A stretch of DNA of 64,000 bases from Limisphaerales bacterium (GTDB lineage: Bacteria > Verrucomicrobiota > Verrucomicrobiia > Limisphaerales > UBA1100), in contig CBFHWX010000001.1 in the NCBI GenBank assembly GCA_965659445.1, positions 1,876-65,875 of the forward strand, in the 5' to 3' direction. The translations under genes and the position numbers were made by a program. The notes below the pieces were generated by a model, which was not told where the DNA came from, did not search any database, and saw only the letters and a list, made by a program, of their open reading frames with translations. The stretch's first letter is position 1. Each line of letters opens with the position of its first letter. Positions 5,894 through 29,580 of the stretch are shown here, piece after piece.

Positions 5894-5995
5894 GGAAACA
5901 CAGGTCAGCAGCCCAAGCTTCATTGCGCTGCGACACTGTCAGCTGCAAGATATTTACCGCCCATATACAGCAATGTCTTGTCCGCCGATTGATCT

Positions 5996-6220: not shown

Positions 6221-6228
6221 TAAAAAAC

Positions 6229-6981: not shown

Positions 6982-7062
6982 GGCCGCAGAGAATAGCGAG
7001 GTGGGGCGGTAATGTCCAATTTGAGATTTGGCGAAAAGCCTGCCAGACGTTAACACTCGCCC

Positions 7063-7392: not shown

Positions 7393-7477
7393 TCATCTCA
7401 AAAGTGAATTGCTATTTATTCAATGTTGCTTTTCGGTTGATGAGCCGTCCTTGACATGTGTTATTGGCTTGCTAAAC

Positions 7478-14546: not shown

Positions 14547-14640
14547 GATTCTCCTTTGCCCGCACCAAATCCCCATCGCGCGCAGCCGTGGGAACCTACT
14601 GGAAAAACACGAGAATGTCGAGTTTCAAGGAGGGTTTCAG

Positions 14641-14695: not shown

Positions 14696-16618
14696 ATGCG
14701 GCAAATCTCAATCATTGCAATCAATGCATTCATGGAACTGGTACGCCAGCCAGTTTTCCTGCTGCTGTTCACATTGTCGCCGATGCTTTGCGTGGGGCTG
14801 GCACTTTTCGATTATTTCGGTTTTGGAGGCACCTCAACCGGCCCTGTGAATTTCGACATTAAGATGGTGAAGGACGGTGCCCTGACGGTGACATTATTTT
14901 CTGGTTTGGCCGCAGCTGTGCTGTGCGCCACCTCGTCCATTTCCCGAGAAATAGAAACCGGCACGGCGTTGGCGGTGCTTTCCAAACCGGTCGGGCGCCT
15001 TCATTTTTTATTAGGCAAATATCTGGGCATCATAGGCGCACTCTCGGTGGGAACCTATCTCAACCTGATTAGCGTGCTGCTGGCCAGTCGCATGGCATCC
15101 GATGCGTACGGCAATTTTGACATTGTCGGCACCTTTACTTTTTTGATTTTTATATCATTGGCCTACCTTGCCGGCGCCCTTGTGAACTATTTTTTGCACA
15201 AGCCGTTTGTGCCGATTACAGTGGGATATCTAACAATAGCATTGACGGTAGGATTTTTTGTGATTTGCGCACAGGACAAAACAACAGCCTTTTACTGGGT
15301 GGATAGTGGAGCGGGGATTGATGCCTCTTTTTGGGATATTTGGAAATTTACTGATGGCGGAGGTATGAGGGGTAGTGAGGTGTTGCAGAAACTGGATATA
15401 GACAAAAATATGTGGGAGTACGTCGACTTTGGCATGATCCAGTTGACTGTGCTGGTTCTCTTCGCCCTTTGGGTTTTGGCCGCGTTGGCCGTGGCCTGTT
15501 CCACACGTCTTTCTTGGATGCCGACCATGATGATTTGCACCAGCGTATTCCTGATCGGAATGATGTCGGATTATTTGCTGGGAGAAGCGGCCGAAGGCGG
15601 AGGGTTGATCCGACAAGGTGAGTATGTGGAATACCGCCCGCTCGAGAACCAGCGAGGGATGCAAAAGGCCTTTTTTCTAGAGCCGAAGGGTATTCGCCGG
15701 TTGGAGTCCCTGCAATACCGTGTACGCGTGAATTTCTCAACCACTCTACACGAGGGCGAGGTGTTTGAGAATAACGTGATCACGTACGATGCGGGCACGA
15801 ACAAGGTGGCCACAATTGATTATGACTTTCTGCGCGAACTGTTGAATAACGAATTCAAGTTGCAATGGAACCGGCCTTTGAACAATGCGATGATTATAGT
15901 GGGGCGCGAGTTGATGCCAGCCGAGTTTCCTCAGGAAACATGGGAGACGTCAGTCTTTCTACAGTCTGATGAATTCCAAAATCGAAAAAAAGAAAAAGTG
16001 GCCACTTGGCAGGTCAAGGCTGACAAGGAGGGATGGGATTTCAGTGAGCGAGAGTCTGAATTGACGCGGAACCTGGTGGAAACCATTCGTCTGGAAAAAG
16101 AACAGGAACTGGTCAACCGAATGATGCTTGAGATGGATGCCAACTCGGGGAAGTTTGAATTGGGTGAGTTCGGGCTTGAAGACGGTGATGAAGACTTGTC
16201 GTTAGAGGTGCAGGCAGAGCGGAAGAAAAAGCAAAAGGAAAAATTCAAGCAGTTCCAGTACATTCGTACCCAATCCGAGATGGAAACTCTGCCTGGCCAA
16301 TTGTCTTTTTGGATTCGCCCGCAGAACGGCACTATTCACAAATGGGACAATGGAAAAGGGGTGTTAAGCGAGGTGACTCAAGGCTCAGCGGTTGCGAAAA
16401 TTCTTTACGTATTGCTGCCGAACTGGCAGCTTTTCTGGCTCTCCGATGCTGTCTCTCCTGAAGAAGTGGAATTGAAGGTGCTTCTTGGGGATATGAAGTA
16501 TCGGGAGGGCCACGTGCCTTGGAAATACGTGTTCACATCACTGTTTTATGTGTTCATGTACGTGTGTCTTGTGCTTTCGGCAGCATTATGGCTGTTTGAA
16601 AAACGTGAGCTAAACTGA
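14696..16618 (+). CDS. ABC-2-type permease-like membrane protein with a large charged insertion (640 aa)
   Basis: The N-terminal polytopic region carries the ABC-2/NosY-like signature SREIETGTALAVLSKPVGRLHFLLGKYLG. About 285 aa of soluble, K/E-rich sequence follows (EKEQELVNRMMLEMD, AERKKKQKEKFKQF) before LLPNWQLFWLSDAV and a final TM (VFTSLFYVFMYVCLVLSAALWLF). Confidence 0.6.
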   Translation: MRQISIIAINAFMELVRQPVFLLLFTLSPMLCVGLALFDYFGFGGTSTGPVNFDIKMVKDGALTVTLFSGLAAAVLCATSSISREIETGTALAVLSKPVGRLHFLLGKYLGIIGALSVGTYLNLISVLLASRMASDAYGNFDIVGTFTFLIFISLAYLAGALVNYFLHKPFVPITVGYLTIALTVGFFVICAQDKTTAFYWVDSGAGIDASFWDIWKFTDGGGMRGSEVLQKLDIDKNMWEYVDFGMIQLTVLVLFALWVLAALAVACSTRLSWMPTMMICTSVFLIGMMSDYLLGEAAEGGGLIRQGEYVEYRPLENQRGMQKAFFLEPKGIRRLESLQYRVRVNFSTTLHEGEVFENNVITYDAGTNKVATIDYDFLRELLNNEFKLQWNRPLNNAMIIVGRELMPAEFPQETWETSVFLQSDEFQNRKKEKVATWQVKADKEGWDFSERESELTRNLVETIRLEKEQELVNRMMLEMDANSGKFELGEFGLEDGDEDLSLEVQAERKKKQKEKFKQFQYIRTQSEMETLPGQLSFWIRPQNGTIHKWDNGKGVLSEVTQGSAVAKILYVLLPNWQLFWLSDAVSPEEVELKVLLGDMKYREGHVPWKYVFTSLFYVFMYVCLVLSAALWLFEKRELN

Positions 16619-16619
16619 A

Positions 16620-18623
16620 ATGGAAAAGCATGATGTCAAGGGCGGTTTCTGGAACCTGCTAATTAGTCTTGTGGCGTTGGGTGGTGGCGTGGTGCTGGTG
16701 ACCTCCACCAAAACCGGCACGGCATACGCATTGTTGTTCTTCGGTATAGTGGGCGTGTTGATTGCTGCCGTCAGTTGGGTGCATATGTTGCTCAGCAATC
16801 GCGAACAGCTTGAGCAGTTGGAATTGGAGGAGGTTCGTCGAGGTCGTGCCGGCGAGGCTCTGTTCTCCGAAGGCGACGTTTTGCCTGCAAGGCGTTCCCG
16901 GGAACAATTTGAAAAATGGGGTGTGCTGGGTGTGGCCCTAACCATTTTGGCGGTTCAGGTGGTTGGTGTTGGTTATCTCAGCTTTTTCAAACTGCTCGAT
17001 CTCTTTAATAAAATTGAGGCGGACAAGAATGCCATCTTCATGCACCCGCTTGCGCAGTACACGGCACTCATAGTTACGGCTCTGGTGGGATTGATCCTCT
17101 TTATTCGAGGTCAGTTTGCCTCGAACTATTCGCGCATTGAAAAGCAGCGACTGTTGCAGCCGGCCTCGGATTATGTGCTCTTCGGGGCTTATCTCAATTT
17201 TGCGATGGCCGCCATGGTGGCGGTTAGTTTCAAGGATCAACGAGTCGATGCCTATGTCGGCTGCGTGCTTGCGTTTTTGATCGGATTCATGGCTCTTGAA
17301 AATTTCCTGAGCATGATATTTGAGTTTTTCCGGCCGCGTGTGGCCGGTCGGCCCGCCCGGTTGCTCTACCAGAGCCGGCTTGTGGGACTAATTGCTAAGC
17401 CGGAGAACCTGTTTACGACCGCGGGCGATGTGTTGAATTACCAGTTCGGCTTCAAGGTTTCCGAGACGTGGGGTTACCGGTTTCTTCGGGAAAGGCTGGG
17501 GGTGTTGATTGGAATTCAGATCATTCTGTTATGGCTTTCCACCAGCATTGTGGTGATCCAGCCCTCTGAGGTGGGAATGAAAGTGAATGTCCTGGGTGGA
17601 GCCGCCAAGTCAGAACCCCTGAAGTCCGGTTTTCACCTTAAAATGCCATGGCCGTTTGCATCAGTGGATCGTTATTATCCAGGTCAGGTTCATAGTTTCA
17701 TCGTGGGGCTGCAGCCTTCCGAAGCTTTTGACAAGCTGGGCGCACCCAAGTTGTGGGCGGCTAAGGTTGGGAAGGACTATGATCCCCTCCGGGAATCCGG
17801 TTTTCTGTATTTCATGGCTGGCGGCAGTAAGACGGGTGCGGCTTCCCAGACTCCTAACATCCTGGTAGCGAGTGTTCCGGTGCATTATAAAATTCGGGAT
17901 GACAAGAAGATGCCGCTAGAGAAGGGGTGGCTGAGATTCGCCAACCCAGAAAAGTTACTGGAAAATATAGCCTACCGGGAAATCTCATCTTTTTTTCTGG
18001 GGAGTAACCTTGAAAAGCTGTTGAAAACGCAAGGGAGTGACGCGAATAAACAGGTGAAGCTCGCCATTCAGAATCGGGCCGATAAGAGGGAGTTGGGTGT
18101 GACCATTTTATTTGTAGGGTTGGGGGATATCCGCCCGCCGGCGGAATCTCCCAGCAATATAAAAGGAGAGTTTTCTGAAGAGGCGGGAGGCCCACAAGAA
18201 ACAGGAGGTGGGCCAGGGTTGGAACTCAGCCCCACGACCATGGTGCAAGCGGTGGAGACGCGTTTTGCCAACTTTGTTGAGTCCAAGGCAAATCTTGAAA
18301 GTGCCGAGGAGTTTAGAAAAGCGGAGGCGATTAAAAAGGCTGCCGGTGTGGAGCAGGAAAAGGGTCTGGCCAAGGTAGAAATAGATCTTGCCGAGGTTCG
18401 TGCTAAGGGGGAAACGAAACGCATGGAAAGTGAGACCGGTCCTTACCGTGCGGCGCCGGAGGTCTACCGACAATGGCGTTATCTTGAGTCCTTCCAGAAA
18501 GCCATAGCTAATGCGCGCAAGTTTGTAATTGCCGTTGGCAAGGGAGTTGATGTCCATGTGGATTTGGATCTTCAGGAATCTCTTCGAAGGGAGATGTATG
18601 AGGTTAAGGGGGGCAACAAATAA
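16620..18623 (+). CDS. Polytopic membrane domain fused to an HflK/HflC-like SPFH (band 7) domain (667 aa)
   Basis: The first 330 aa or so contain about 6 hydrophobic helices. Then comes an anchor helix (LGVLIGIQIILLWLSTSIVVI) and SPFH-like segments: QPSEVGMKVNVLGG, GFHLKMPWPFASV and VPVHYKIRD. The C-terminal YRAAPEVYRQWRYLESFQKAI parallels the HflK tail motif. Confidence 0.65.
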   Translation: MEKHDVKGGFWNLLISLVALGGGVVLVTSTKTGTAYALLFFGIVGVLIAAVSWVHMLLSNREQLEQLELEEVRRGRAGEALFSEGDVLPARRSREQFEKWGVLGVALTILAVQVVGVGYLSFFKLLDLFNKIEADKNAIFMHPLAQYTALIVTALVGLILFIRGQFASNYSRIEKQRLLQPASDYVLFGAYLNFAMAAMVAVSFKDQRVDAYVGCVLAFLIGFMALENFLSMIFEFFRPRVAGRPARLLYQSRLVGLIAKPENLFTTAGDVLNYQFGFKVSETWGYRFLRERLGVLIGIQIILLWLSTSIVVIQPSEVGMKVNVLGGAAKSEPLKSGFHLKMPWPFASVDRYYPGQVHSFIVGLQPSEAFDKLGAPKLWAAKVGKDYDPLRESGFLYFMAGGSKTGAASQTPNILVASVPVHYKIRDDKKMPLEKGWLRFANPEKLLENIAYREISSFFLGSNLEKLLKTQGSDANKQVKLAIQNRADKRELGVTILFVGLGDIRPPAESPSNIKGEFSEEAGGPQETGGGPGLELSPTTMVQAVETRFANFVESKANLESAEEFRKAEAIKKAAGVEQEKGLAKVEIDLAEVRAKGETKRMESETGPYRAAPEVYRQWRYLESFQKAIANARKFVIAVGKGVDVHVDLDLQESLRREMYEVKGGNK

Positions 18624-18632
18624 TATTTACTC

Positions 18633-19613
18633 ATGAAAAAGACAATCAACATCATCATATTTGGGCTGTTAATTCTCATCTTCGGCTCCTACATGTTCAC
18701 CTTTCAGGTGAGGCAGGATCAAGTGGCCTTCTTATCGAAAAGCGGCAGCGCGGGCAAACCCATCGAGAAAACCGGGCTGCATTTCAAGTTGCCTTGGCCG
18801 TTCATGCAAAAATATATCTTCGATAAGCGTATTCGACTGGAAACCAATGATTATGAGGAGATGACCACCAAGAATGACACGGCCGTGGTGGTGCAGATAT
18901 ATTTCGGATGGAAAATTGATGAGGGTGGCGCCCAAAAGTTTTTTGAAGCCTACAAAGGTACTGATGATGAGGAGCAATTGAAAACCGCACGCAAACAAAT
19001 CAAGGATGCTGTTCAGGAAACCGGCAAGGAAGTAATCAAGGACTATGTAACCAGCGTTGGCTATTTCATTTCGAACGATGAAAACCCGGAAGATTCACAA
19101 ACTGAAGGAAGCGAGGACCGTCAGACTTTTAAAGAAACAGAAGATAAAATTCTGGAAAATGCCAACAAGCGTGTCACCAGTCAGGGAGTGAAAATTACTT
19201 TTGTGGGAATCCGTCGGGTGGGTGTGCCACAAAGAAACCTGGACGTGGTGTTGGATGCCATGGTCACCGAATGGATGAGTAAAGCGGAAACGGAAAAGGT
19301 GAAGGCCGATTCCATGGCGGCCACAATCAAGAGCAACGCGCTGAACGAACGAATTGCGGCGATCAATACGGCGAAGATCCAGGCGGCCAGTCAGGTAAGT
19401 GAGGCACAGGAGAAGGCCAAGAAACAATTTGAGTCATTTAAGAAAGATCCGGAGTTGGCGTCATTTCTGATGCAATTGGACGCGCTTGAAAAATCAGTCA
19501 AGGACCAGACTACGCTGATACTTGATGAAACGATGGGGCCTTTCCCAATTTTACGCGGTCTCAAACCCTATCTTAAATCCGGAGAAACCGGCTCCCCGAT
19601 TAAGCCTGAATAA
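18633..19613 (+). CDS. HflC-like SPFH-domain protein (326 aa)
   Basis: N-terminal anchor INIIIFGLLILIFGSYMF, then VRQDQVAFLSK, GLHFKLPWPFMQKYIFDKRI, GVKITFVGIRRVGVP, a coiled-coil region and KKDPELASFLMQLDALEKS. This matches the HflC layout as I remember it (GLHFKIPF ... KDPDFYAFIRSLRAYE). Confidence 0.7.
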   Translation: MKKTINIIIFGLLILIFGSYMFTFQVRQDQVAFLSKSGSAGKPIEKTGLHFKLPWPFMQKYIFDKRIRLETNDYEEMTTKNDTAVVVQIYFGWKIDEGGAQKFFEAYKGTDDEEQLKTARKQIKDAVQETGKEVIKDYVTSVGYFISNDENPEDSQTEGSEDRQTFKETEDKILENANKRVTSQGVKITFVGIRRVGVPQRNLDVVLDAMVTEWMSKAETEKVKADSMAATIKSNALNERIAAINTAKIQAASQVSEAQEKAKKQFESFKKDPELASFLMQLDALEKSVKDQTTLILDETMGPFPILRGLKPYLKSGETGSPIKPE

Positions 19614-20830
19614 TGCGCATGAGCGACCCCGAAGAAAAACAGTCGGAGATGGAGCCGGTAGATATCGGTAATGAGGCCAGTTCACAGGCCATGGATGCTG
19701 CTTTGCAGAGCAGCTTTGTGATTCTCAAGGTTGTTATCGCAGTGCTCGCCGTGTATCTGGTTTTTTCCAACACTTTTTCCGTCGTGGAGGGTAAGCAAGG
19801 TGCGATTATTTTACGTTTTGGTGAGTCTCGAACCAGTACAGAAGATGTGTGGAAACCCGGCATTCGTTTTGCCTGGCCCTTTCCGATTGAGGAAAGGGTT
19901 ATCATAGACGCGGTAAGTCCGGTAACTACGGCTTTTGCCTGGACCCAATATCCGAAAGTCGATGATGGCATGCCCGATGATGATCCCGGTAAATACCCTA
20001 ATATTGTAGCGCGGGACCCTCGTCAGGGATATCTGCTAACCAAGGATAACAAAGCCATTCATCTCAAAGCAGAGATGAGATATGAGGTCACTGATTTTGA
20101 TCGGTTTGTGTTCGGGTTTTATAAAAAAGATGAAAACAAGGATGAACCAACTGATGCTGAAAGGACTCTGGAACACATGTTGGAAAGTGCTCTTACGCAT
20201 GCGGCTTACGAACGCACACTGGAGGAGATTCTGAATCCCAATCGTATTCCCAAGGAGGCAAGTGACCGCGATACCTTTCAGAAGAAAGTTGAAAAACGCG
20301 TCGCAATCTTGATGGAGCAATATGACCTGGGAGTGAAGTTGAAAGACCGGGTCACCATCAGTTTTGGAAACAGCGAAGAAATGGAATCCATTCCCGTAGG
20401 TCGAGGTGTGGAAGACCCGGCCTCGCCGGAAGCCCAACCGGGAGCCCGCAAGAGCCGAAAGAAGTTCACAGAGCAAGCCAGTGATACGGTTAAAAGAATC
20501 AAGGACGCCGAGCGCGAGGCTCGAATGCGCTACCCATTACCAAGCAAAAGCGGGGAATTGGCCATCATTGCTAAACAGGCGGAGAATGAAAAGAAAGCCC
20601 TGCTCCAATCTCTGGAAGCGACTGCTAAACGTTTTGACAGTATTTATGAGAAATTTTCCGACCCCGCCGCCCGCCACCGGCACATGGAGGAACTGTATTA
20701 CCAAACCATTACGCGCATTGCCCAGGACACAGACGTGAAAATATATCTCGTTCCCAAAGGAGATGAGAACCAACCCACGCGTCTGCGATTACAAATCAAC
20801 CAACCGCCACCCAAGCGTAACAATAATTAA
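19613..20830 (+). CDS. HflK-like SPFH-domain protein (405 aa)
   Basis: Anchor helix VILKVVIAVLAVYLVF, then VVEGKQGAIILRFGE, GIRFAWPFPIEERVIIDAV, IHLKAEMRYEVTDFDRF and the C-terminal HMEELYYQTITRIAQDTDVKIYLVP (compare HflK RERLYIETMEKVL). The ATG shares one base with the upstream TAA. Confidence 0.65.
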   Translation: MRMSDPEEKQSEMEPVDIGNEASSQAMDAALQSSFVILKVVIAVLAVYLVFSNTFSVVEGKQGAIILRFGESRTSTEDVWKPGIRFAWPFPIEERVIIDAVSPVTTAFAWTQYPKVDDGMPDDDPGKYPNIVARDPRQGYLLTKDNKAIHLKAEMRYEVTDFDRFVFGFYKKDENKDEPTDAERTLEHMLESALTHAAYERTLEEILNPNRIPKEASDRDTFQKKVEKRVAILMEQYDLGVKLKDRVTISFGNSEEMESIPVGRGVEDPASPEAQPGARKSRKKFTEQASDTVKRIKDAEREARMRYPLPSKSGELAIIAKQAENEKKALLQSLEATAKRFDSIYEKFSDPAARHRHMEELYYQTITRIAQDTDVKIYLVPKGDENQPTRLRLQINQPPPKRNNN

Positions 20831-20839
20831 ACGGTCATT

Positions 20840-22813
20840 ATGCCTGCTGAGGAAAACGAAAATAACGAGGTCGAATTGAACCAGGCCGCAACGACGGTGA
20901 AGTTCATGTTCGCCGGTATTTTGTTTGTAATCAACGGCTTCCTTGCGGATGTGTTTTTAGGTAAGGAATCCAATGTAGGCGATTTCAGCGCAATGATTGG
21001 CGCGTTAATACTCGGAGTCCGTGTGTTTCGCACCACGATTAAGGATCTTCAGCAAGGCCTTCTTACCACAAACGAGCTTGTGGCTATTGCTGTGTTGGCA
21101 ACATTCAGTTATGGCCAGTATCACGCGGCCGGATTGGTGGCGTTCTTCATGTTGCTGGCCGAAATGATTGAATCACGCACGGCCTCGGGTGCGCAGGAGG
21201 CCATTCGCCGCCTGATGAAGATGACGCCGACCAAGGCGCACCGCATCACTTCGGACGGGGAAGAGGAGGTTTCGGCCAATGACCTCGCAGTAGGTGACCG
21301 TATTCGCGTGCGGCCCGGAGACAACATTCCTGCGGATGGTGAGATTCTTACGGGTACCGGCTCAATTAATCAGGCTAATATCACAGGGGAATCGTTACCT
21401 GTTGAGAAGCGGCCCGGAGACATGGTCTTTCAGGGTACCATCAATAATGATGGGGTACTGGAAGTTAAGATTACCAAGGTGGGAGTGGAGACAGAGTTTG
21501 GCCGCGTGCGCGAATTGATTATTCAAGCGGCTCAATCCAAGACACGGTTTGAAAAAATCGTCGACCAGTACATGGGATTTTATACGCCGCTGGTCCTGGT
21601 AATTGGAGCGCTCGTGTGGGCGTTTACACAGGACTTGGAGCGGGTGATTTCAGTCTTCATTGTTTCAAGCCCGGTGGCGTTTATTTTGGCGACCCCCACG
21701 GCGATGGTGGCCGCAGTGGCCACAGCCTCACGACTGGGCATTCTCATTAAACAGGTTAGTGATATTGAATTGGCGGCGCGGATTAATGCGTTTGTTTTTG
21801 ATAAAACCGGAACCATAACAACTGGTACGTTGAAGGTGAGCCAGTTACGCCCGGAGGGTGATGTGAAGCCGGCAGAGCTGCTTTTGGCCACAGCTACTGC
21901 AGAGCAATACAGCAATCACCCCACCGCCAAGGCTATTATGACCTTGGCGAACGAAGCTGGGTTGCCACTTTCTGAGCCGGAGGATTTCAATGAGACCGCC
22001 GGTAAAGGTGTGCGGGCAAAGGTGGACGGCGCAGAGGTGTTGGTGGGCCGCGAAATGTGGCTTGAGGAAAACAAAATCAGTGGTGACTTCAAGCAATCAG
22101 TGGATTTGGATGAGGCGGAAGGTTATAGTTTGGTTTATGTGGCCCGCGATGGAAAGTTTATTGGCTGGATAGGAATGACTGATGAGATTCGAGAGGAGGC
22201 CGCAGAGTCCCTTGAGGAACTTCGTTTGGAAGGCGTGCGGCGGCTGATGATTGTTTCCGGCGATCGCACACCTGTTTCTGAGCGAGTGGCCGCTGAAGTG
22301 GGATGTGAAGAGGTGAAGGCGGATTGTTTCCCCGGCGACAAGGTGGATCACGTGCAAGCCATGCGTAAGAAAGGTTACAAGGTTGCCTTTGTGGGTGATG
22401 GTGTGAACGATGCTCCCGCTTTAAAGGCCGGTGATATCGGCATTGCGATGGGCGCAGCCGGTAGTGATGTTGCGGTGGATTCTGCGACCATTGCGCTGAT
22501 GAACAATGATCTCAGGCGCCTGCCTTTCCTGATGCACCTTTCGCGTATGACCCGTTCAGTGATTAACCAGAATTTTATTTTTGGGGTGCTCTTTGTGATT
22601 GTTGGTCTGGTCATGGCCGCCTTTAAATGGATTAACCCGGTTAGCGCAGCCGTCCTCAATGTAATGGGATCGTTGATTGTTGTGTTTAATAGCGCGCGAT
22701 TGGTGCGTGAAGGTGAAGAGTTCGAAGTTTTCGAGGAAGGCGAAGAGGAACAAGAAATATCCGGTGCAGCCGAGATTACGGAAACATCCAGAATGGCCAC
22801 CGAGGCCGTATGA
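20840..22813 (+). CDS. P-type ATPase, P1B-like core, no N-terminal metal-binding domain and no CPC motif
   Basis: ITGESLPVEK (TGE), FVFDKTGTITTG (phosphorylated Asp), SNHPTAKAI (HP dipeptide typical of P1B) and VGDGVNDAPALKAGDIGIAMG. The helix that normally carries CPC reads VSSPVAFILATPTAM. Confidence 0.85.
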   Translation: MPAEENENNEVELNQAATTVKFMFAGILFVINGFLADVFLGKESNVGDFSAMIGALILGVRVFRTTIKDLQQGLLTTNELVAIAVLATFSYGQYHAAGLVAFFMLLAEMIESRTASGAQEAIRRLMKMTPTKAHRITSDGEEEVSANDLAVGDRIRVRPGDNIPADGEILTGTGSINQANITGESLPVEKRPGDMVFQGTINNDGVLEVKITKVGVETEFGRVRELIIQAAQSKTRFEKIVDQYMGFYTPLVLVIGALVWAFTQDLERVISVFIVSSPVAFILATPTAMVAAVATASRLGILIKQVSDIELAARINAFVFDKTGTITTGTLKVSQLRPEGDVKPAELLLATATAEQYSNHPTAKAIMTLANEAGLPLSEPEDFNETAGKGVRAKVDGAEVLVGREMWLEENKISGDFKQSVDLDEAEGYSLVYVARDGKFIGWIGMTDEIREEAAESLEELRLEGVRRLMIVSGDRTPVSERVAAEVGCEEVKADCFPGDKVDHVQAMRKKGYKVAFVGDGVNDAPALKAGDIGIAMGAAGSDVAVDSATIALMNNDLRRLPFLMHLSRMTRSVINQNFIFGVLFVIVGLVMAAFKWINPVSAAVLNVMGSLIVVFNSARLVREGEEFEVFEEGEEEQEISGAAEITETSRMATEAV

Positions 22814-22829
22814 CTTACGTTATCGTCCT

Positions 22830-24053
22830 ATGACCGAGAATGATTTAGAGGAAACCATCACAGCCCCCGCTGAAACGGATGAGATCACGGAGGTGGTGCA
22901 GGTGCGCGGGCTGGTAAAAGTGTTCGAGGATTTCTGGGGTCGCCCAAAGGCTAAGGCGGTGAATGATGTGGACTTTGAAGTGCGACAGGGTGAAGTGTTT
23001 GGTTTGCTGGGTCCGAATGGCTCCGGTAAATCTACAACCATCAAAATATTACTCGGCCTGTTGAATCCAACGCGCGGGTTTATTCGCATTTTTGACCAAT
23101 CCCCCCGTGATGTGAAAACCAAGGAGCGTATCGGATATCTTCCTGAGGAATCCTACCTATACAAATATCTGAACTCCGAAGAAACTCTTGATTTTTTTGG
23201 TGGATTATTTGCGCTGGATCCCAAAGAGAAAGCCCGCCGAGAAGAGCAACTGCTCGAGATGGTGGGATTGAAAGCGGTGCAATTGCGAACGGTGGGTGAG
23301 TTTTCCAAAGGTATGCAACGACGCATTGGTTTGGCGCAGGCGCTGATCAATGATCCGGATTTGGTGATCCTTGATGAGCCGACCAGTGGTTTGGATCCGG
23401 TGGGCTGTCGGGAAATTAAGGACCTTATCCTCAACCTCAAGGCACGCGGTAAAACAGTGATTCTCTCAAGTCATCTGCTGGCTGATGTGGAAGATGTTTG
23501 CGATCGGGCCGTTATTTATTACGGCGGAAAGATCCAACAATATGGTACCCTTGATGAATTGCTCACCGAACGCGATTCTATTCGGTTCACCATGCCGGCC
23601 CTCTCAGAAGAGGCGCAGCATGAAGTGTTGAGCGTGATCAATAAACATGTCAAAAGTGAAGACGTGCACGTGGATAATCCCACACAGAATCTTGAGAGCT
23701 TTTTCCTCAATGTTGTGGAGGATGCCATCACCAAGGATGAGGAAACTTCCGGGTCCACTTCCGGCCATGAAGTTGCCGAGTTTTTGCGAAGCGATGCGCC
23801 GGTGCAATCGCAGGCTGAGAAGATGTTGGATCGACTGGCTGACAAGGAAGCCTCCAAACCGAAACCCAAGATTGAGAAGGAAGTGCCGGAGTTCGAACAA
23901 CCCAAGGTGGACGAGAAGAAGCTTGAGTCCCTCTCGGAAGCTGAGAAGTCCGCCTCGCCAAAAGTGAAAGCGCCAACGAACAAGAGTACTCAAGAGCAAA
24001 AGAAAATGGATGAGGCCGATGATAAACTATCCGACCTGTTGGGCGGGGATTAG
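22830..24053 (+). CDS. ABC transporter ATP-binding protein with an acidic/lysine-rich C-terminal tail
   Basis: Walker A GPNGSGKSTT, Q-loop, signature FSKGMQRRIGLAQAL, Walker B LVILDEPTSGLD and H-loop SSHLL. The last 110 aa or so are low-complexity (KPKPKIEKEVPEFEQPKVDEKK). I chose the ATG at 22830 (MTENDLEE) because the track start at 22677 overlaps the ATPase gene. Confidence 0.85.
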   Translation: MTENDLEETITAPAETDEITEVVQVRGLVKVFEDFWGRPKAKAVNDVDFEVRQGEVFGLLGPNGSGKSTTIKILLGLLNPTRGFIRIFDQSPRDVKTKERIGYLPEESYLYKYLNSEETLDFFGGLFALDPKEKARREEQLLEMVGLKAVQLRTVGEFSKGMQRRIGLAQALINDPDLVILDEPTSGLDPVGCREIKDLILNLKARGKTVILSSHLLADVEDVCDRAVIYYGGKIQQYGTLDELLTERDSIRFTMPALSEEAQHEVLSVINKHVKSEDVHVDNPTQNLESFFLNVVEDAITKDEETSGSTSGHEVAEFLRSDAPVQSQAEKMLDRLADKEASKPKPKIEKEVPEFEQPKVDEKKLESLSEAEKSASPKVKAPTNKSTQEQKKMDEADDKLSDLLGGD

Positions 24054-24064
24054 GAGGGTTCGCC

Positions 24065-26200
24065 ATGAAACAATCTAAGCTTCTACTTGTTGTCATATTG
24101 GCGATTTTGTCTCTCGTAGCGGTTGTTGTCTTGTACCAAATTTACCCTTCAAGATGGATAATATATTCATATGTGGGGATTCTTATAGCAGGCATTTTCT
24201 TCTCAGTGGTCAGTTCGACTTACCAGAGGCAGTCTGAAACACTCATTTTACATACCGCAGGGCTAATTGGGCTGGTGGCCATTGTAACTGTTGTTAGTTA
24301 TTTCGGGGGTGGGCTGTGGTTGGGGGCCCTGGGATTGCTCGCCCTGATCGCGTTGATTGTCTACTGTATTTTAGATTCCCGCACGCGCACCATCTCGCGT
24401 CTCACTTGGAAAGCCGCCTTTCGGTTTCGTTTCTTCTGGGTTATGGCAATTCTGCTGCTTTTTTCCGTGGTGGGTTTGCCTATGATGATCAAGGGCGATG
24501 GCACGGCTGAGGGGTTAACTCAAATCCTTATTACTTACACGCTCAGCACGATATTTTTCATCCTTGGCACAGGCACTCTTTGGCTTTCAGCAGGCACCAT
24601 GGCGCGTGATATCGAAGATTCACAAATGCAAATGATAGCCACCAAGCCAATTGCCCGGTGGCAGATCTGGATGGGCAAATGGATTGGCATCATGGCCTTA
24701 AACGTGACATTGCTGGTGATGGTTGGTGTGGCGGTTTTCGGAGTGGTGGAATACCGGGCCTATCGACTGACTAATGAGGAATTTAACCGCATAAAGGATC
24801 AATCTGATAAAGAGGTTTTTAAAACAGCGCTCAAAGCGGGTATTGATGTTTTCCAGCGCGATGAGGCAACTCTTGGATTCGTTAAGGCTTCGAAGGATCA
24901 ACCGTTGCTGGAACAATCCAGAAGTACATTCTTCGGGACTCGAGAGGGTTTCATGATCAAGGAGTTTATTGATAAAAATAAAGTCCAACCTTTGCTGAAG
25001 CCAATGGAGGAATTACGGCGTGAAGTAGCGGGACTGGAAGAGAAGAGATTACGGAAGCAAGTGCTGATCGGTCGTGCAAAAATGACATTGAAAGAAGTGA
25101 AATTTGCCCGGACACCGGAAACAGTGGTTCCGCTGAAGGAAAGCTATGAATCGCAGATTGAGGAGGAGGTACGGTTCCAAATCGAGCAGGAAATGGCCGA
25201 TCGCCTGGAGGTGCAGCGGCGCATACAATCTGAGGGGGGTTCGTTCGAAGTGCCAAAGGAACTTTCGGAGGCTGAAATGAATGTCTTTCAGGCACGTGCA
25301 GAATTGATGTTGAGGACTAGAATGCAGGTGTTGGAACCAGGTCGTGGGTTTCAATTCCAGTTTACCAAGCCATTAGGGTTTGATTTGCCGGAAGATCAAC
25401 GTCTCATATTACAATTCCAATTTACAGACGCTCGCCAGCCTACCAGTGATGAGGAATATGGAGTCATGTACATGTATGGACCCGAAAGTCGTCCAGATGT
25501 GGAATTAGTTCCTCGTCAATTGACTGCCCGAAGGACTCATCAAGTCTACCTGCATGGGCACACGGTGGATACGAACAATGTAATACAGAGTATATTCGGC
25601 GACGACCAAACGTTTTGTGTCACATTAGTCAATGCCACTCATCGCTCGGGCCAGTATCCACGGCCAGCTTTATTGAAGCTTCCTTTCATTAACGAGATGA
25701 CCGGGGAAATTGATCCCTCCAAAGTGCAACTAATGTATCGCGAGTCTGGATTTGCCATCAATTTTATACGGGCTCTTGGTATTCTTTTAGCGTGGCTTGG
25801 GATTTTTGCGGCTTTGGGATTGTTCGCAGCTGGTTTCATGTCTTTCCCCATGGCGGCATTCTCTTGTCTGGCAGTGCTGGGTATCTCCTTATTTAGCCCG
25901 GTGATGAAGGAAGTTTTGGATGATGGCACCATTATGAATACTTATACCCTTGGTGAGCGAGATAGATCTGTTGTGGATTGGTATGCGATACCAGCGTTTA
26001 CTCTGCTGGTTACACTTATAGATCCGGTGAAGGATTACTCACCGATTAGTAGTTTGGCAGAAGGCGAGAGTGTCACGTGGGGTGAATTAGCCAAGGCCTA
26101 TTCCTTCATATGGGGTGTTTCCGGCTGGCTGTTGGGGCTTTTCGGTGCGATTATATTCTCAAGAAGACAGCTGGCCATCAACGGAGCACAAGCCCCATGA
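24065..26200 (+). CDS. ABC-2-type permease-like membrane protein with extra N-terminal helices and a large soluble insertion (711 aa)
   Basis: GGAGGG lies upstream of the ATG. About 4 extra N-terminal helices precede the ABC-2-like signature ARDIEDSQMQMIATKPIARWQIWMGKWIG. A soluble insertion of about 330 aa follows (coiled-coil-like EELRREVAGLEEKRLRKQ), then C-terminal helices. Confidence 0.55.
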   Translation: MKQSKLLLVVILAILSLVAVVVLYQIYPSRWIIYSYVGILIAGIFFSVVSSTYQRQSETLILHTAGLIGLVAIVTVVSYFGGGLWLGALGLLALIALIVYCILDSRTRTISRLTWKAAFRFRFFWVMAILLLFSVVGLPMMIKGDGTAEGLTQILITYTLSTIFFILGTGTLWLSAGTMARDIEDSQMQMIATKPIARWQIWMGKWIGIMALNVTLLVMVGVAVFGVVEYRAYRLTNEEFNRIKDQSDKEVFKTALKAGIDVFQRDEATLGFVKASKDQPLLEQSRSTFFGTREGFMIKEFIDKNKVQPLLKPMEELRREVAGLEEKRLRKQVLIGRAKMTLKEVKFARTPETVVPLKESYESQIEEEVRFQIEQEMADRLEVQRRIQSEGGSFEVPKELSEAEMNVFQARAELMLRTRMQVLEPGRGFQFQFTKPLGFDLPEDQRLILQFQFTDARQPTSDEEYGVMYMYGPESRPDVELVPRQLTARRTHQVYLHGHTVDTNNVIQSIFGDDQTFCVTLVNATHRSGQYPRPALLKLPFINEMTGEIDPSKVQLMYRESGFAINFIRALGILLAWLGIFAALGLFAAGFMSFPMAAFSCLAVLGISLFSPVMKEVLDDGTIMNTYTLGERDRSVVDWYAIPAFTLLVTLIDPVKDYSPISSLAEGESVTWGELAKAYSFIWGVSGWLLGLFGAIIFSRRQLAINGAQAP

Positions 26201-27885
26201 GCAAGGAACGAGCTACTATTTTCAACAACCTGCCCAAGCCCGCCCTGATTGGTGTCATGCTGGCCTCCTTGGTTGGGGTTTTTCTGATGCAGGGCAAGCT
26301 CAACGAGGAACGCGGTAAACTAAGCCCCACCCATCTTGAGCCGCTGCAGGACGCTCCTCCCATGCTGGCACTCGTCACTCAGTCCATAGCAGGCTTCCGT
26401 GGCATCATCACCTCCTATTTATGGCTGCGTTCCAATGCAATGCAGCAAAAGAAAAATTATCCCGAGCAAATGCAGTTGGCCGAGTGGATTACTCAGCTTC
26501 AGCCTCAAGTGCCCAACGGCTGGGCGAACCGGTCATGGAATATGGCCTACAATATTTCACGTAATTATGAAGATCCGGAAACCCGGTGGAAATACATACA
26601 TGACGCGGTGAAATTGTTGCGTGATCAGGGCATTAAGTACAATCCACAGGAACCCTTGGTATACGATGAACTGTGCCGCCTTTTTCAACATAAGATAGGT
26701 CATAACATGGATAGCCATCACCGCTACTACAAATTCAGATGGATGCAAGCCATGGAAGGAGTGCTGTGGGACAGCCCTACGGCTGGCCATCTGGCAGGAG
26801 GGGTGCCGGATTTTGAATCGCTGATCAAGCCGGATGAAAACAACAAGAAACTTGTGGAACGGGCTAAACGCCTGCGTCAGGAGTATGGATTGGATCCACG
26901 TGAAATGCAGGCTGTTCACAAGAAGTATGGTTTGGCGCGCGATCATACGGGAGAGGTGATCCGGGACAAGGATGGGAAGACGATCAATTGCCTGGACTGG
27001 CGGATGGCGGAAACTCATTCCCTATATTGGGCAAATCTAGGTCTCAAGCGTTGCAGTCTCACCCCCGGACGCGAAAAACGCCTCCACGTGCTCGAGAAGA
27101 AAGTTTATGTGTCCATGATGTACGGCTTTCAGCGTGGTCGATTAAACGTTCCGTCAGCAACGATGAAAAACATGGGGGTACGCATCAATTACCACTTTGG
27201 AAAGGATATGAACGCGTTCAGTGAATATAGCAGTGGATTTATTTCAGCTCCCAATTTGGATAGTGGGGGAGCAGTGCATAAAGCATATATGGACATGATT
27301 AAACATGCTCAAGATAACCGGACAATACACTACACCGGTGGTACATCAGAGATGGGGCACATACACTTTCTTCGCCGACTGATGGAGTGGCTTTACTTTT
27401 ATAATCGAGAGGAAGAAGCCATGGAGTGGCTGAAGGTGGCCATTAAATTATATCCAACAAAAATGTCTTACTTCCCCGGGTATAACAGTGAGACAGATAC
27501 GTATAGGCTGGATGATATTGTTAACGATAAAATGAAGGATGATGTGCAACGCGGGAGTGATTCTAAAACGCAGGCGTTATTGTGGGGAATTTTTACCAAA
27601 CATTATTTCTATCTGGCCAGCGGGGATGAGGAAAGGGCGGACAATTATTATGACATGGCCAAACAAATTCATGACCATTATACTGACAAATTCAAGAATT
27701 CCCCGGAACGAATGGGTATTGCACCTTTTGAACAATATAGGATAACACGGCTACGCGCATTTCTTATGGAGGAGGATTCTGTGGTGACAGGTGCCCTTCG
27801 TACCCAACTAGGGTTGGGTAAGGAAGAAATGCCCGAGGTGCCTAAAATACAGGGTCCCCAACCACAGCCCGGGCCCGAACAATAA
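26197..27885 (+). CDS. Membrane-anchored protein of unknown family (562 aa), Trp/Tyr-rich helical ectodomain
   Basis: ATGA overlap with the upstream stop. Single N-terminal TM PALIGVMLASLVGVFLM. Conserved-looking blocks FRGIITSYLWLRSN, WANRSWNMAYNISRNYEDPETRWKYIHDAVKLLRDQG and HSLYWANLGLK. Pro/Gln-rich tail. Confidence 0.5.
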   Translation: MSKERATIFNNLPKPALIGVMLASLVGVFLMQGKLNEERGKLSPTHLEPLQDAPPMLALVTQSIAGFRGIITSYLWLRSNAMQQKKNYPEQMQLAEWITQLQPQVPNGWANRSWNMAYNISRNYEDPETRWKYIHDAVKLLRDQGIKYNPQEPLVYDELCRLFQHKIGHNMDSHHRYYKFRWMQAMEGVLWDSPTAGHLAGGVPDFESLIKPDENNKKLVERAKRLRQEYGLDPREMQAVHKKYGLARDHTGEVIRDKDGKTINCLDWRMAETHSLYWANLGLKRCSLTPGREKRLHVLEKKVYVSMMYGFQRGRLNVPSATMKNMGVRINYHFGKDMNAFSEYSSGFISAPNLDSGGAVHKAYMDMIKHAQDNRTIHYTGGTSEMGHIHFLRRLMEWLYFYNREEEAMEWLKVAIKLYPTKMSYFPGYNSETDTYRLDDIVNDKMKDDVQRGSDSKTQALLWGIFTKHYFYLASGDEERADNYYDMAKQIHDHYTDKFKNSPERMGIAPFEQYRITRLRAFLMEEDSVVTGALRTQLGLGKEEMPEVPKIQGPQPQPGPEQ

Positions 27886-29571: not shown

Positions 29572-29580
29572 CCGCGTGCT

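What the first reader, a model, noticed from the sequence alone, without database searches (positions are those of the whole stretch)
16620..20830. Three consecutive HflK/HflC-type SPFH paralogs, the first fused to a polytopic domain of about 330 aa, with no FtsH or NfeD nearby
All three ORFs show the SPFH layout. Each has an anchor helix and an early G(L/F/I)(H/R)F(K/A)(L/M/W)PWPF strand (GFHLKMPWPF, GLHFKLPWPF, GIRFAWPFPI). Each also has a long coiled-coil region and an HflK/C-type C-terminal motif (YRAAPEVYRQWRYLESF, KDPELASFLMQLDALE, MEELYYQTITRIA).

HflK/C is known to form a large hetero-oligomeric cage. A three-paralog set, one carrying about six extra TM helices, suggests a more elaborate or asymmetric assembly. 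The junctions (+9 nt and a shared base) imply stoichiometric co-expression.
Basis: partly seen in the sequence, partly recalled or inferred. Interest (0 to 1): 0.6.

Follow-up and report, generated by a model that had tools for sequence, protein, structure and literature searches.

The report
SPFH trio wired to metal pump
Three membrane-scaffold (SPFH, HflK/HflC-type) genes are real, and they form the fixed core of an eight-gene operon, conserved across Verrucomicrobiota, that also encodes a metal-pumping P-type ATPase and an ABC transporter; the extra membrane domain on the first protein is a degenerate zinc-transporter (CDF) fold, which makes this a natural test case for what SPFH cages do to their clients.

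Summary
ORFs 16620-18623 (S1, 667 aa), 18633-19613 (S2, 326 aa) and 19613-20830 (S3, 405 aa) all pass Pfam Band_7. S2 is HflC-like; S1 and S3 are HflK-like. All three score below the NCBIfam equivalog cut-offs.

S1's fused six-helix N-terminal domain is not a frameshift: more than 1000 cluster representatives share the domain at their N-terminus. Three methods identify it as a divergent cation-diffusion-facilitator (CDF) membrane domain that lacks the canonical metal site and the cytoplasmic domain.

The trio sits in a collinear operon: ABC-2 permease-like A, S1, S2, S3, a P1B-type ATPase, an ABC ATPase, permease-like B, and an alpha-solenoid protein C (14696-27885).
- From S1, in 80 GTDB genomes, the ATPase is adjacent in 61/61 loci.
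- From the ATPase, in 80 metagenome loci, S1 is adjacent in 38/38.

In the window's marine subclade the ATPase has SPV in place of CPC and Asn in place of the M6 His.

Best reading (about 0.5): an HflK/C-like heteromeric ring dedicated to the co-encoded metal-export machinery. Main rival: it is the lineage's ordinary FtsH modulator. No publication on this operon or fusion was found. I rate it a new variant of a known kind.

The parts
14696..16618 (+). A: ABC-2-type permease-like membrane protein (640 aa). It carries an insert of about 320 aa relative to the ~320-aa orthologs.
   Evidence: Pfam ABC2_membrane_2 scores 31.5 bits against a cut-off of 27.2. It lies immediately upstream of S1 in 76/76 GTDB loci and 31/31 metagenome loci. 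Its stop codon is 1 nt before the S1 start.
16620..17321 (+). S1 residues 1-234: six-helix CDF-like (cation diffusion facilitator) transmembrane domain with a degenerate metal site.
   Evidence: TM helices by hydropathy; AF2 pLDDT about 90. Foldseek hits to YiiP, ZnT3 and ZnT1. Pfam Cation_efflux matches 8 of 72 family members, best 27.2 bits above GA 26.6. hhalign against FieF+ZitB gives Prob 85.5%, E 5.6e-6 over 199 collinear columns, while controls give at most 2.5%. The site-A positions are F41, G45, Y185 and G189.
17322..17501 (+). S1 residues 235-294: cytoplasmic linker, the most conserved stretch of the family (E(I/F)(Y/F)RPR ... L(D/N)YQFGFKVSETW). It stands where a CDF would have its C-terminal domain.
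   Evidence: Invariant columns R238, P239, S252, Y274-G277 and S281 across 72 to 100 representatives. It holds 10 K/R residues, consistent with a cytoplasmic location.
17502..18623 (+). S1 residues 295-667: anchor helix, SPFH domain (312-509), 89-residue helix (541-629) and HflK-type C-terminal motif YRAAPEVYRQWRYLESF (609-625).
   Evidence: Pfam Band_7 37.8 bits. AF2 model. Foldseek top hit is HflK 7vhq_E, E 3e-10. The C-terminal stretch aligns to E. coli HflK 298-350.
18633..19613 (+). S2: HflC-like SPFH protein (326 aa) with one N-terminal anchor helix.
   Evidence: Band_7 38.8 bits. TIGR01932 hflC 90.9 bits, below the 134.4 cut-off, covering 7-301. Full-length phmmer match to E. coli HflC 7vhq_G, E 5.5e-15. 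Present in 74/74 and 51/51 loci.
19613..20830 (+). S3: HflK-like SPFH protein (405 aa) with an anchor helix at 33-51.
   Evidence: Band_7 46.4 bits. TIGR01933 hflK 57.6 bits, below the 159.4 cut-off, covering 56-379 of the protein and 2-247 of the 261-position profile. No PDB hit by phmmer. Present in 66/68 and 61/64 loci.
20840..22813 (+). P1B-type P-type ATPase (657 aa) without an N-terminal metal-binding domain. M4 reads SPV (21665-21697) where orthologs read CPC, and M6 has Asn where orthologs have His.
   Evidence: TIGR01525 scores 545.7 against a cut-off of 346; TIGR01512 scores 458.4 against 313.5. DKTGT, TGES and GDGVNDAP are intact. The LpCopA alignment places CPC opposite SPV. Adjacent to the trio in 61/61 loci.
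22830..24053 (+). ABC transporter ATPase (407 aa from ATG 22830; the ORF list's TTG start at 22677 is too early).
   Evidence: Pfam ABC_tran E 8e-32. Best NCBIfam matches are of the DrrA/GldA/RbbA type. Orthologs are about 400 aa. Adjacent in 52/55 and 52/56 loci.
24065..26200 (+). B: second ABC-2 permease-like polytopic protein (711 aa), with a large insert relative to the ~460-aa orthologs.
   Evidence: ABC2_membrane_2 22.3 bits, below the cut-off. Shares the ABC-2 signature stretch with A. Orthologs hit PF12679. Present in 51/54 loci.
26197..27885 (+). C: membrane-anchored all-alpha solenoid protein (562 aa). Its start ATG overlaps the stop codon of B (ATGA).
   Evidence: The start was set from orthologs and the ATG checked. 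No Pfam or NCBIfam family. AF2 pLDDT 82, pTM 0.80. Only weak TPR-like Foldseek matches. Present in 48/51 loci.

Best explanation
**What it is.** S1, S2 and S3 are three genuine, very divergent HflK/HflC-type SPFH proteins.
- S1 is HflK-like with an N-terminal six-helix domain derived from a cation-diffusion-facilitator (CDF) transporter.
- S2 is HflC-like.
- S3 is HflK-like.

They are the invariant core of an eight-gene operon conserved across Verrucomicrobiota: A-S1-S2-S3-P1B ATPase-ABC ATPase-B-C.

**How I think it works.**
- By analogy with HflK/HflC, the three proteins co-assemble into a ring or cage on the periplasmic face of the inner membrane, anchored by their N-terminal helices.
- This assembly is a dedicated scaffold for the co-encoded export machinery.
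- It corrals, stabilises or gates the P1B metal pump, and probably the ABC-2 transporter, in a private membrane patch. That would make it a hard-wired 'metal efflux platform'.
- S1's pseudo-CDF domain has lost the canonical metal site. It most likely serves as the membrane-embedded adaptor that recruits the pump, not as a transporter itself.

**Shown.**
- SPFH identity of all three proteins.
- CDF ancestry of the S1 domain.
- Topology: N-terminus inside, SPFH domain outside.
- Strict two-way synteny between the trio and the ATPase.

**Inferred.**
- Co-assembly of the three proteins.
- A client relationship with the pump.
- The metal specificity.
For: **SPFH identity.**
- Band_7 above cut-off in all three.
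- HflC and HflK are the best NCBIfam and PDB relatives.

**The fusion is real.**
- 367 homologs were found; the 120 listed are typically 620-670 aa and mostly cover more than 90% of the query.
- 1028 cluster representatives carry the N-terminal domain. The full-length ones are 580-830 aa with the domain at residues 1 to about 300.

**CDF ancestry of the S1 domain.**
- Foldseek matches YiiP and ZnT structures.
- Pfam Cation_efflux is the only recurrent non-SPFH family, in 8 of 72 members, with the best hit above GA.
- hhalign gives Prob 85.5% against at most 2.5% for controls.
- About a third of the family keeps the CDF TM2 motif S-x-A-x-x-A-E-x-W-H.

**Topology.** K/R counts are 24 on the inside against 6 on the outside.

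**Linkage to the pump.**
- The gene order is collinear in 80/80 GTDB loci. A is present in 76/76, S2 in 74/74, S3 in 66/68, the ATPase in 61/61 and the ABC ATPase in 52/55.
- The order is kept in a clade only 26% identical in S1.
- The reverse sampling, seeded with the ATPase, finds S1 in 38/38, S2 in 51/51 and S3 in 61/64 loci.

**Metal link.** ATPase orthologs carry CPC, an M6 His and His/Cys-rich N-termini, and they pass TIGR01512/TIGR01525.

**Precedents.**
- Operon-encoded scaffold PacL1 is needed for the stability of the P1B ATPase CtpC in 'metal efflux platforms' (PMC9374683).
- SPFH cages have been seen with enclosed clients: HflK/C-FtsH, and stomatin-aquaporin 9zd2.
Against: - There is no direct evidence of physical interaction, and no multimer modelling was possible.
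- Conserved synteny could reflect co-regulation only.
- Canonical hflKC in E. coli is also unlinked to ftsH. The absence of ftsH here therefore does not exclude the classical FtsH-modulator role.
- I could not test whether these genomes carry another hflKC pair.
- In the window's own subclade the ATPase has lost CPC and the M6 His, reading SPV and Asn.
- S1 in the window has no CDF-site ligands, so 'metal' is least certain for this very locus.
- The substrate of the ABC-2 module is unknown.
- The ABC ATPase-B-C module can live apart from the trio.
Confidence: 0.5

Rival explanations
1. The trio is simply this phylum's version of HflK/HflC, with HflK duplicated and one copy fused to a membrane domain. 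It forms the usual cage around FtsH to control membrane-protein quality. The neighbouring transporter genes are at most FtsH substrates or co-regulated cargo.
For: - S2 aligns end to end with E. coli HflC.
- S1 keeps the HflK C-terminal motif.
- HflK/HflC are the top structural matches.
- Source annotations call the orthologs 'protease modulator HflK'.
- hflKC and ftsH are unlinked in E. coli too (established knowledge).
Against: - All three proteins score well below the HflK/HflC equivalog cut-offs: 39.8 and 57.6 against 159.4, and 90.9 against 134.4.
- A housekeeping FtsH modulator has no obvious reason to be locked in strict two-way synteny with one particular P1B ATPase subfamily across the phylum.
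- It also has no obvious reason to carry a CDF-derived domain.
Confidence: 0.25
2. S1 is still an active CDF-type cation/proton antiporter that uses a non-canonical site, for example the invariant intramembrane E227. The SPFH parts (S1 C-terminus, S2, S3) gate or cluster it, so the operon combines two pumps under one regulator.
For: - The six-helix CDF fold is retained and confidently modelled.
- E227 is 70/72 Glu and 2/72 Asp, and D/E235 is nearly invariant.
- A third of the family keeps the E and H of the CDF TM2 motif.
Against: - Three of the four site-A positions are non-ligands throughout the family: Gly predominates at D49, aromatic residues at H153, and a mix of Asn, Gly, Ser, Cys and others at D157.
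- All four positions are non-ligands in the window protein.
- The CDF cytoplasmic domain is absent.
- The window protein itself has no Pfam Cation_efflux match.
Confidence: 0.1
3. The trio is a generic membrane-microdomain or envelope-stress scaffold without a specific client. Its position in the operon is historical.
For: - Many bacterial SPFH proteins have pleiotropic, ill-defined roles.
- The ABC ATPase-B-C module is separable from the trio.
Against: - Adjacency to the ATPase and to A holds in every informative locus in two independent samplings, and in a clade with only 26% S1 identity.
- The CDF-derived fusion points to the same functional theme as the pump.
Confidence: 0.1

Closest known systems
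E. coli HflK/HflC-FtsH complex (PDB 7VHP/7VHQ, 7WI3, 9CZ2)
   Same: - The architecture matches: N-terminal anchor helix, periplasmic SPFH domain, long helix, and K- and C-type C-terminal motifs.
- S2 aligns to HflC over its full length, and S1's best structural match is HflK.
- The genes are adjacent and co-oriented.
   Different: - There are three subunits instead of two.
- All three fall below the equivalog cut-offs.
- One subunit carries a six-helix CDF-like domain.
- The genes are embedded in a transporter operon.
- An FtsH partnership is untested.
PacL1-CtpC 'metal efflux platforms' of Mycobacterium tuberculosis (PMC9374683)
   Same: An operon-encoded membrane scaffold sits next to a P1B-type ATPase. 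In that system the scaffold is required for pump stability and clustering. This is the closest functional model for what I propose.
   Different: - PacL1 is a small DUF1490 protein with Glu/Ala repeats and a metal-binding motif, not an SPFH protein.
- Its foci exclude flotillin.
- No ABC-2 module is involved.
Cation diffusion facilitators (YiiP/FieF, ZitB, ZnT; Pfam PF01545)
   Same: - Six-helix transmembrane fold, collinear from TM1 to TM6, including the post-TM6 'LLD..P'-like turn.
- The TM2 signature is partly retained in a third of the family.
   Different: - There is no cytoplasmic CTD.
- The site-A ligands are largely (family) or completely (window) replaced.
- The C-terminus is fused to a seventh helix and an HflK-like ectodomain.
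- The window protein has no Pfam match.
Stomatin/flotillin-NfeD operons (QmcA-YbbJ, PH1511-PH1510, FloA-NfeD)
   Same: An SPFH gene in a conserved operon with a dedicated membrane partner (PMC2636767).
   Different: - No NfeD is present in the window or in any locus examined.
- These proteins belong to the HflK/C branch, not the stomatin or flotillin branch.
P1B-2/P1B-4 ATPases (ZntA 4UMV, sCoaT 7QBZ) and CopA (3RFU)
   Same: - The operon ATPase has the eight-helix P1B layout and intact catalytic motifs.
- It passes TIGR01525 and TIGR01512.
- Orthologs have CPC, an M6 His at the ZntA D714 position (the D714 equivalence is my hand alignment from the remembered ZntA sequence, not a tool result), and His-rich N-termini.
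   Different: - The motif set CPC + H(N/V)xGS does not match a classical subgroup that I can name.
- The window's subclade has SPV + N(V)xGS and no His-rich N-terminus.

Membership tests
SPFH / Band 7 superfamily (PF01145) | SPFH domain match above Pfam's gathering score | tested here: met
   S1 37.8, S2 38.8 and S3 46.4 bits against a cut-off of 23.6. 71 of 72 S1-family representatives also match.
SPFH / Band 7 superfamily (PF01145) | N-terminal membrane anchor followed by the SPFH domain and a long helical (coiled-coil) region | tested here: met
   Anchor helices by hydropathy. The S1 model has helix 541-629. S2 aligns through the HflC helical region. S3 covers TIGR01933 positions 2-247.
HflK (TIGR01933 equivalog) | Score at or above the curated cut-off of 159.4 bits | tested here: not met
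   S1 39.8 bits and S3 57.6 bits. They are HflK-like, not HflK equivalogs.
HflC (TIGR01932 equivalog) | Score at or above the curated cut-off of 134.4 bits | tested here: not met
   S2 scores 90.9 bits with near full-length coverage. E. coli HflC gives E 5.5e-15.
HflK/HflC-FtsH system | Physical and functional partnership with FtsH | not testable with these tools
   There is no ftsH in the 64-kb window, but ftsH is unlinked in E. coli as well. Whole genomes could not be searched.
Cation diffusion facilitator (PF01545 Cation_efflux) | Six-helix CDF transmembrane fold or homology | tested here: met
   Foldseek matches YiiP and ZnT (TMt about 0.5). hhalign gives Prob 85.5%, E 5.6e-6, against controls of at most 2.5%. 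8 of 72 family members hit PF01545, one of them above GA.
Cation diffusion facilitator (PF01545 Cation_efflux) | Pfam match of the window protein itself | tested here: not met
   No Cation_efflux hit even at E <= 10. The profile also finds nothing in PDB sequences.
Cation diffusion facilitator (PF01545 Cation_efflux) | Site-A metal ligands in TM2 and TM5 (FieF D45, D49, H153, D157) | tested here: not met
   The window has F41, G45, Y185 and G189. In the family, H occupies the first position in 23 of 72 members, and the other three positions are predominantly non-ligands.
Cation diffusion facilitator (PF01545 Cation_efflux) | Cytoplasmic C-terminal dimerisation domain (ZT_dimer, PF16916) | tested here: not met
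   There is no such match in S1 or in 72 relatives. The region is replaced by a 60-aa conserved linker plus TM7.
P1B-type ATPase (TIGR01525) | Score above cut-off, with the catalytic DKTGT, TGES and GDGVNDAP motifs | tested here: met
   545.7 bits against a cut-off of 346. The motifs were located.
P1B-type ATPase (TIGR01525) | CPx-type motif (CPC/CPH/SPC) in M4 | tested here: not met
   The window and its subclade have SPV. Most orthologs have CPC.
SPFH-NfeD operon | Adjacent NfeD gene | tested here: not met
   No NfeD Pfam hit in the window ORFs or among the called genes of related loci.
PacL-P1B 'metal efflux platform' | PacL (DUF1490) scaffold gene next to the ATPase | tested here: not met
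   No DUF1490 hit in any operon protein. The resemblance is functional only.
Anti-phage defence systems (PADLOC) | Match to a defence-system model | tested here: not met
   No hits for A, S1, S2, S3, B or C.

The most novel reading that the evidence does not exclude
A three-subunit SPFH cage forms a closed periplasmic chamber over genetically hard-wired transporter clients: a P1B pump, a pseudo-CDF domain built into the cage wall, and possibly an ABC-2 exporter. The chamber would be a private metal-handling compartment for detoxification or metalloprotein loading. The window's marine subclade would have retuned the pump, changing CPC/His to SPV/Asn, towards a different ion. This would be the first bacterial SPFH assembly whose client is specified by operon structure and by domain fusion.
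Probability: 0.2. Interest if true: 0.85.

Novelty: new variant of a known kind. Interest (0 to 1): 0.62.

Why it matters
The function of most bacterial SPFH proteins is unknown. The field's open question is what the recently visualised SPFH cages actually do to the membrane proteins they enclose.

Here evolution names the probable client.
- A specific P1B ATPase subfamily is locked to an HflK/HflC-like trio in every informative locus, in both directions of sampling.
- One cage subunit carries a transporter-derived domain of the same functional theme.

This gives a tractable, phylum-wide system. Cultured carriers appear to exist in Limisphaera and Pedosphaera. It can be used to test scaffold-client coupling and three-subunit cage assembly, and to ask how a CDF fold is repurposed as a structural module.

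The locus also flags an undescribed P1B variant (SPV / Asn) that remains 76-85% identical within its subclade despite losing all three presumed metal ligands.

Tried and rejected
- **Frameshift or mis-assembly origin of the S1 fusion.** Rejected. Full-length relatives are listed, and 1028 cluster representatives carry the domain at the N-terminus.
- **Stand-alone N-terminal domain.** The short hits begin or end at the protein's end, as contig-end fragments would. No complete stand-alone version was evident.
- **Anti-phage defence system.** No PADLOC hits.
- **Horizontally acquired island.** GC and skew are flat across the cluster, and the surroundings are housekeeping genes.
- **Protein C as a NosD-like or solute-binding partner that would reveal the substrate.** The AF2 model is an all-alpha solenoid with only weak TPR-like matches.
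- **A and B as NosY or GldF equivalogs.** Only weak GldF similarity, E 0.003.
- **Promoter and terminator scan.** Counts equal the shuffle expectation, so it is uninformative.
- **Two cluster copies in one MAG (L007, L008).** They are 86% identical and collinear over 17 kb including the flanks. This fits strain mixture in the bin better than paralogy.
- **Literature.** Searches for this operon, for Verrucomicrobial HflK/C and for CDF-SPFH fusions found nothing relevant.
- **CDF profile diversity.** The FieF homolog search returned only near-identical enterobacterial sequences, so the CDF profile used for hhalign is shallow.

Full report
**1. Observation**

The three ORFs are present as described: S1 at 16620-18623 (667 aa), S2 at 18633-19613 (326 aa) and S3 at 19613-20830 (405 aa).
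- The S1/S2 spacer is 9 nt, and the S2 stop shares one base with the S3 start (TAATG).
- Pfam Band_7 is matched above its gathering score by all three: 37.8, 38.8 and 46.4 bits against 23.6.
- Hydropathy finds six N-terminal helices in S1 plus an anchor helix at 295-313. S2 and S3 each have a single anchor helix.
- An AlphaFold2 model of S1, built on 32 homologs, has a mean pLDDT of 78. It shows a confidently packed six-helix bundle (pLDDT about 90), an SPFH alpha/beta domain and one 89-residue helix at 541-629.
- K/R counts are 24 in the predicted cytoplasmic segments against 6 outside. This puts the N-terminus inside and the SPFH domain in the periplasm, as in HflK/C.
- No FtsH or NfeD is encoded in the 64-kb window. 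The window is otherwise housekeeping: thr genes, pgk/tpi, lgt, glnD, pdxJ, comEC, and PSCyt/DUF1501 pairs typical of the PVC group.

**2. Which SPFH branch**

- S2 aligns over its whole length to E. coli HflC (E 5.5e-15). It scores 90.9 bits on TIGR01932.
- S3 scores 57.6 bits on TIGR01933 (hflK).
- S1 scores 39.8 bits on TIGR01933 through its C-terminal YRAAPEVYRQWRYLE motif, which aligns to HflK 298-350.
- All three are below the curated equivalog cut-offs, so they are HflK/C-like rather than HflK/C.
- Foldseek on the S1 model ranks HflK first (7vhq_E, E 3e-10), followed by HflC, erlin, prohibitin, stomatin and flotillin.
- The three proteins are almost unalignable to each other by BLASTP. 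The paralogy is ancient.

**3. The fusion is real and has an identity**

*The fusion is conserved.*
- A homolog search returned 367 proteins; among the 120 listed, full-length members are 620-670 aa and cover 90-100% of S1.
- An exhaustive profile search with the N-terminal 294 residues found 1028 cluster representatives. The full-length ones are all 580-830 aa with the domain at residues 1 to about 300.

*Sequence libraries do not name the domain.* Pfam, NCBIfam and the PDB sequences give nothing for the window domain.

*Three independent lines identify it as a CDF transmembrane domain.*
- After the SPFH hits, the only high-probability Foldseek matches are YiiP, ZnT3 and ZnT1. For example, 8f6h_B has a TM-score of 0.52 and rmsd 5.5 Å over 222 columns.
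- When 72 full-length family representatives were scanned one by one, Cation_efflux (PF01545) was the only recurrent family besides Band_7. It appeared in 8 members, with the best at E 3.9e-6 and 27.2 bits, above GA 26.6. Every other family was a singleton.
- hhalign of the 72-sequence N-domain alignment against a FieF+ZitB alignment gives Prob 85.5% and E 5.6e-6. The 199 aligned columns are collinear from TM1 to the post-TM6 'LLD..P' turn.
- In the hhalign controls, eleven unrelated polytopic proteins gave 0.1-1.6% and the reversed CDF alignment gave 2.5%.

*The domain is degenerate.*
- The four site-A ligands of FieF (D45, D49, H153, D157) correspond to F41, G45, Y185 and G189 in the window protein.
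- About a third of the family keeps the CDF TM2 motif as S-x-A-x-x-A-E-x-W-H.
- The CDF cytoplasmic domain is replaced by a 60-residue linker, which is the most conserved part of the protein (E-I-Y-R-P-R ... L-D-Y-Q-F-G-F-K-V-S-E-T-W). A seventh helix follows.
- An intramembrane Glu (E227) is invariant or Asp in 72/72 members.

**4. The real unit is an eight-gene operon**

The genes on either side are tightly packed on the same strand.
- A, an ABC-2 permease-like protein (14696-16618).
- A P1B-type ATPase (20840-22813).
- An ABC ATPase. Its true start is ATG 22830.
- B, a second ABC-2-like membrane protein (24065-26200).
- C (26197-27885).

Orthologs only 33-35% identical in S1 have the same order.

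*Sampling from S1.* A scan of one genome per GTDB species found at least 595 carriers. Nearly all are labelled Verrucomicrobiota, chiefly Limisphaerales/Pedosphaeraceae and Verrucomicrobiales. In the 80 loci kept, the order is collinear in 80/80:

| Gene | Present / informative loci |
|---|---|
| A | 76/76 |
| S2 | 74/74 |
| S3 | 66/68 |
| ATPase | 61/61 |
| ABC ATPase | 52/55 |
| B | 51/54 |
| C | 48/51 |

*Deep conservation.* A clade with only 26% S1 identity still has all eight genes.

*Sampling from the ATPase.* This used 80 metagenome loci at 61-95% identity to the window ATPase.

| Gene | Present / informative loci |
|---|---|
| S1 | 38/38 |
| S2 | 51/51 |
| S3 | 61/64 |
| A | 31/31 |

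*Two sub-modules can be seen.*
- A-S1-S2-S3-ATPase occurs without an adjacent ABC ATPase-B-C in Limisphaera.
- ABC ATPase-B-C occurs alone in a Kiritimatiellae MAG.

*Protein C.* It has no family. Its model (pLDDT 82, pTM 0.80) is a membrane-anchored alpha-solenoid with only weak TPR-like matches.

**5. The ATPase**

- It passes TIGR01525 (545.7 against 346) and TIGR01512 (458.4 against 313.5). DKTGT, TGES and GDGVNDAP are intact.
- Most orthologs have CPC in M4, H(N/V)xGS in M6 and His/Cys-rich N-termini. By my hand alignment with the ZntA M6 sequence recalled from memory (not checked with a tool), that His falls at the position of ZntA D714.
- The window and its nearest relatives (L007-L013 and L015; those with source labels are marine or oceanic Verrucomicrobiales/Verrucomicrobiota MAGs) have SPV and N(V)xGS and no His-rich N-terminus. 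They remain 76-85% identical to one another.
- So the ancestral pump looks like a divalent transition-metal exporter. This lineage has replaced all three presumed ligands while staying under strong constraint.

**6. Mechanism**

*Shown.*
- Three HflK/C-type proteins with the SPFH domain facing the periplasm.
- One of them carries a CDF-derived membrane domain.
- Obligate two-way linkage to a P1B ATPase subfamily and to an ABC-2 permease-like gene.

*Inferred.*
- The three proteins co-assemble like HflK/HflC into a ring or cage.
- That assembly acts as a dedicated scaffold that holds, stabilises or gates the co-encoded pump(s).
- The pseudo-CDF domain of S1 acts as the membrane adaptor.

*Closest functional precedent.* PacL1 of M. 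tuberculosis is an operon-encoded scaffold needed for CtpC (P1B) stability in 'metal efflux platforms'. It is not an SPFH protein (PMC9374683).

*Structural precedents for clients inside SPFH cages.* HflK/C-FtsH and stomatin-aquaporin-1 both appear among the Foldseek hits.

*Confidence and rivals.* I put about 0.5 on this reading.
- Main rival (0.25): the trio is the phylum's ordinary FtsH modulator. I could not test whether carrier genomes hold another hflKC pair. The lack of a nearby ftsH is uninformative, because E. coli hflKC is unlinked to ftsH as well.
- Lesser rival: S1 is still an active transporter using a non-canonical site.
- Lesser rival: a generic scaffold with no specific client.

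**7. Novelty**

Full-text searches found no description of this operon, of Verrucomicrobial HflK/C, or of a CDF-SPFH fusion. The 2009 survey of prokaryotic SPFH operons mentions neither ATPases nor Verrucomicrobia.

Each component belongs to a known family. The combination has not been described:
- a three-gene SPFH set;
- a CDF-derived fusion;
- strict coupling to a P1B pump and an ABC-2 module.

I therefore class it as a new variant of a known kind. Interest is moderate to high, because it offers a genetically defined client for an SPFH cage.

Noticed in passing
window 21665-21697 and 22655-22672 (ATPase M4 and M6): The operon's P1B ATPase has SPV where orthologs have CPC, and Asn where they have the M6 His. 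It also lacks their His-rich N-terminus. The same triple change is shared by L007-L013 and L015, which stay 76-85% identical to the window ATPase. This looks like a retuned or non-canonical ion site under purifying selection.
   Followed up: partly
window 12066-14576 (-) and 10609-12069 (+): An FHA-Ser/Thr kinase-TPR-LRR protein is transcribed divergently from the operon, with a Sel1-repeat protein beside it. Both are conserved at the same position in Verrucomicrobiales-type loci (47-66% identity for the kinase in L003, L007-L013, L015, L016, L038 and L075). They were not detected upstream in the other loci, including those labelled Limisphaerales. The kinase is a possible lineage-specific regulator.
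   Followed up: partly
window 14696-16618 and 24065-26200: Both ABC-2 permease-like proteins are much longer here than in distant orthologs: A is 640 aa against about 320, and B is 711 aa against about 460. The difference is large, charged, probably coiled-coil inserts between transmembrane segments. B gives a weak Pfam 'Filament' hit at 311-413.
   Followed up: no
window 22677-24053 and 26110-27885: The mechanical ORF starts are too early. The ABC ATPase most likely starts at ATG 22830, 16 nt after the P-ATPase stop. C starts at ATG 26197, overlapping the stop codon of B (ATGA). Both match the lengths of the orthologs.
   Followed up: yes
window 27910-33501: A complete Opp/Dpp-type peptide ABC importer (SBP_bac_5, two BPD_transp_1 permeases and a fused double ATPase) follows the operon on the same strand. 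An OppA-like gene follows C in several related loci (L009, L011-L013, L016, L018). In L003 the permeases are on the opposite strand.
   Followed up: partly
L007 and L008 (both from MAG PBFV01, Verrucomicrobiales SP3086): Two copies of the whole cluster come from one MAG. They are 86% identical in DNA and collinear over 17 kb including the flanks. This is more likely two strains binned together than a genomic duplication.
   Followed up: yes
L092 (Kiritimatiellae MAG JANWZO010000030.1) 4167-8080: The ABC ATPase-B-C sub-module occurs alone, without the SPFH genes or the P-type ATPase. It is therefore a separable unit with a wider distribution than the trio.
   Followed up: partly
window 45013-50709 (-): Two tandem DUF1501 genes and a PSCyt1/PSCyt2/PSD1 protein form the characteristic PVC-group gene pair. 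The two DUF1501 ORFs overlap by about 220 nt in the mechanical ORF list, so one start is probably mis-set.
   Followed up: no
S1 residue E227 (window 17298-17300) and the linker at 17322-17501: An intramembrane Glu in TM6 is conserved in 72/72 family representatives (70 Glu, 2 Asp). The cytoplasmic linker after TM6 is the most conserved stretch of the whole protein. Neither has a known counterpart in CDFs or in HflK.
   Followed up: partly
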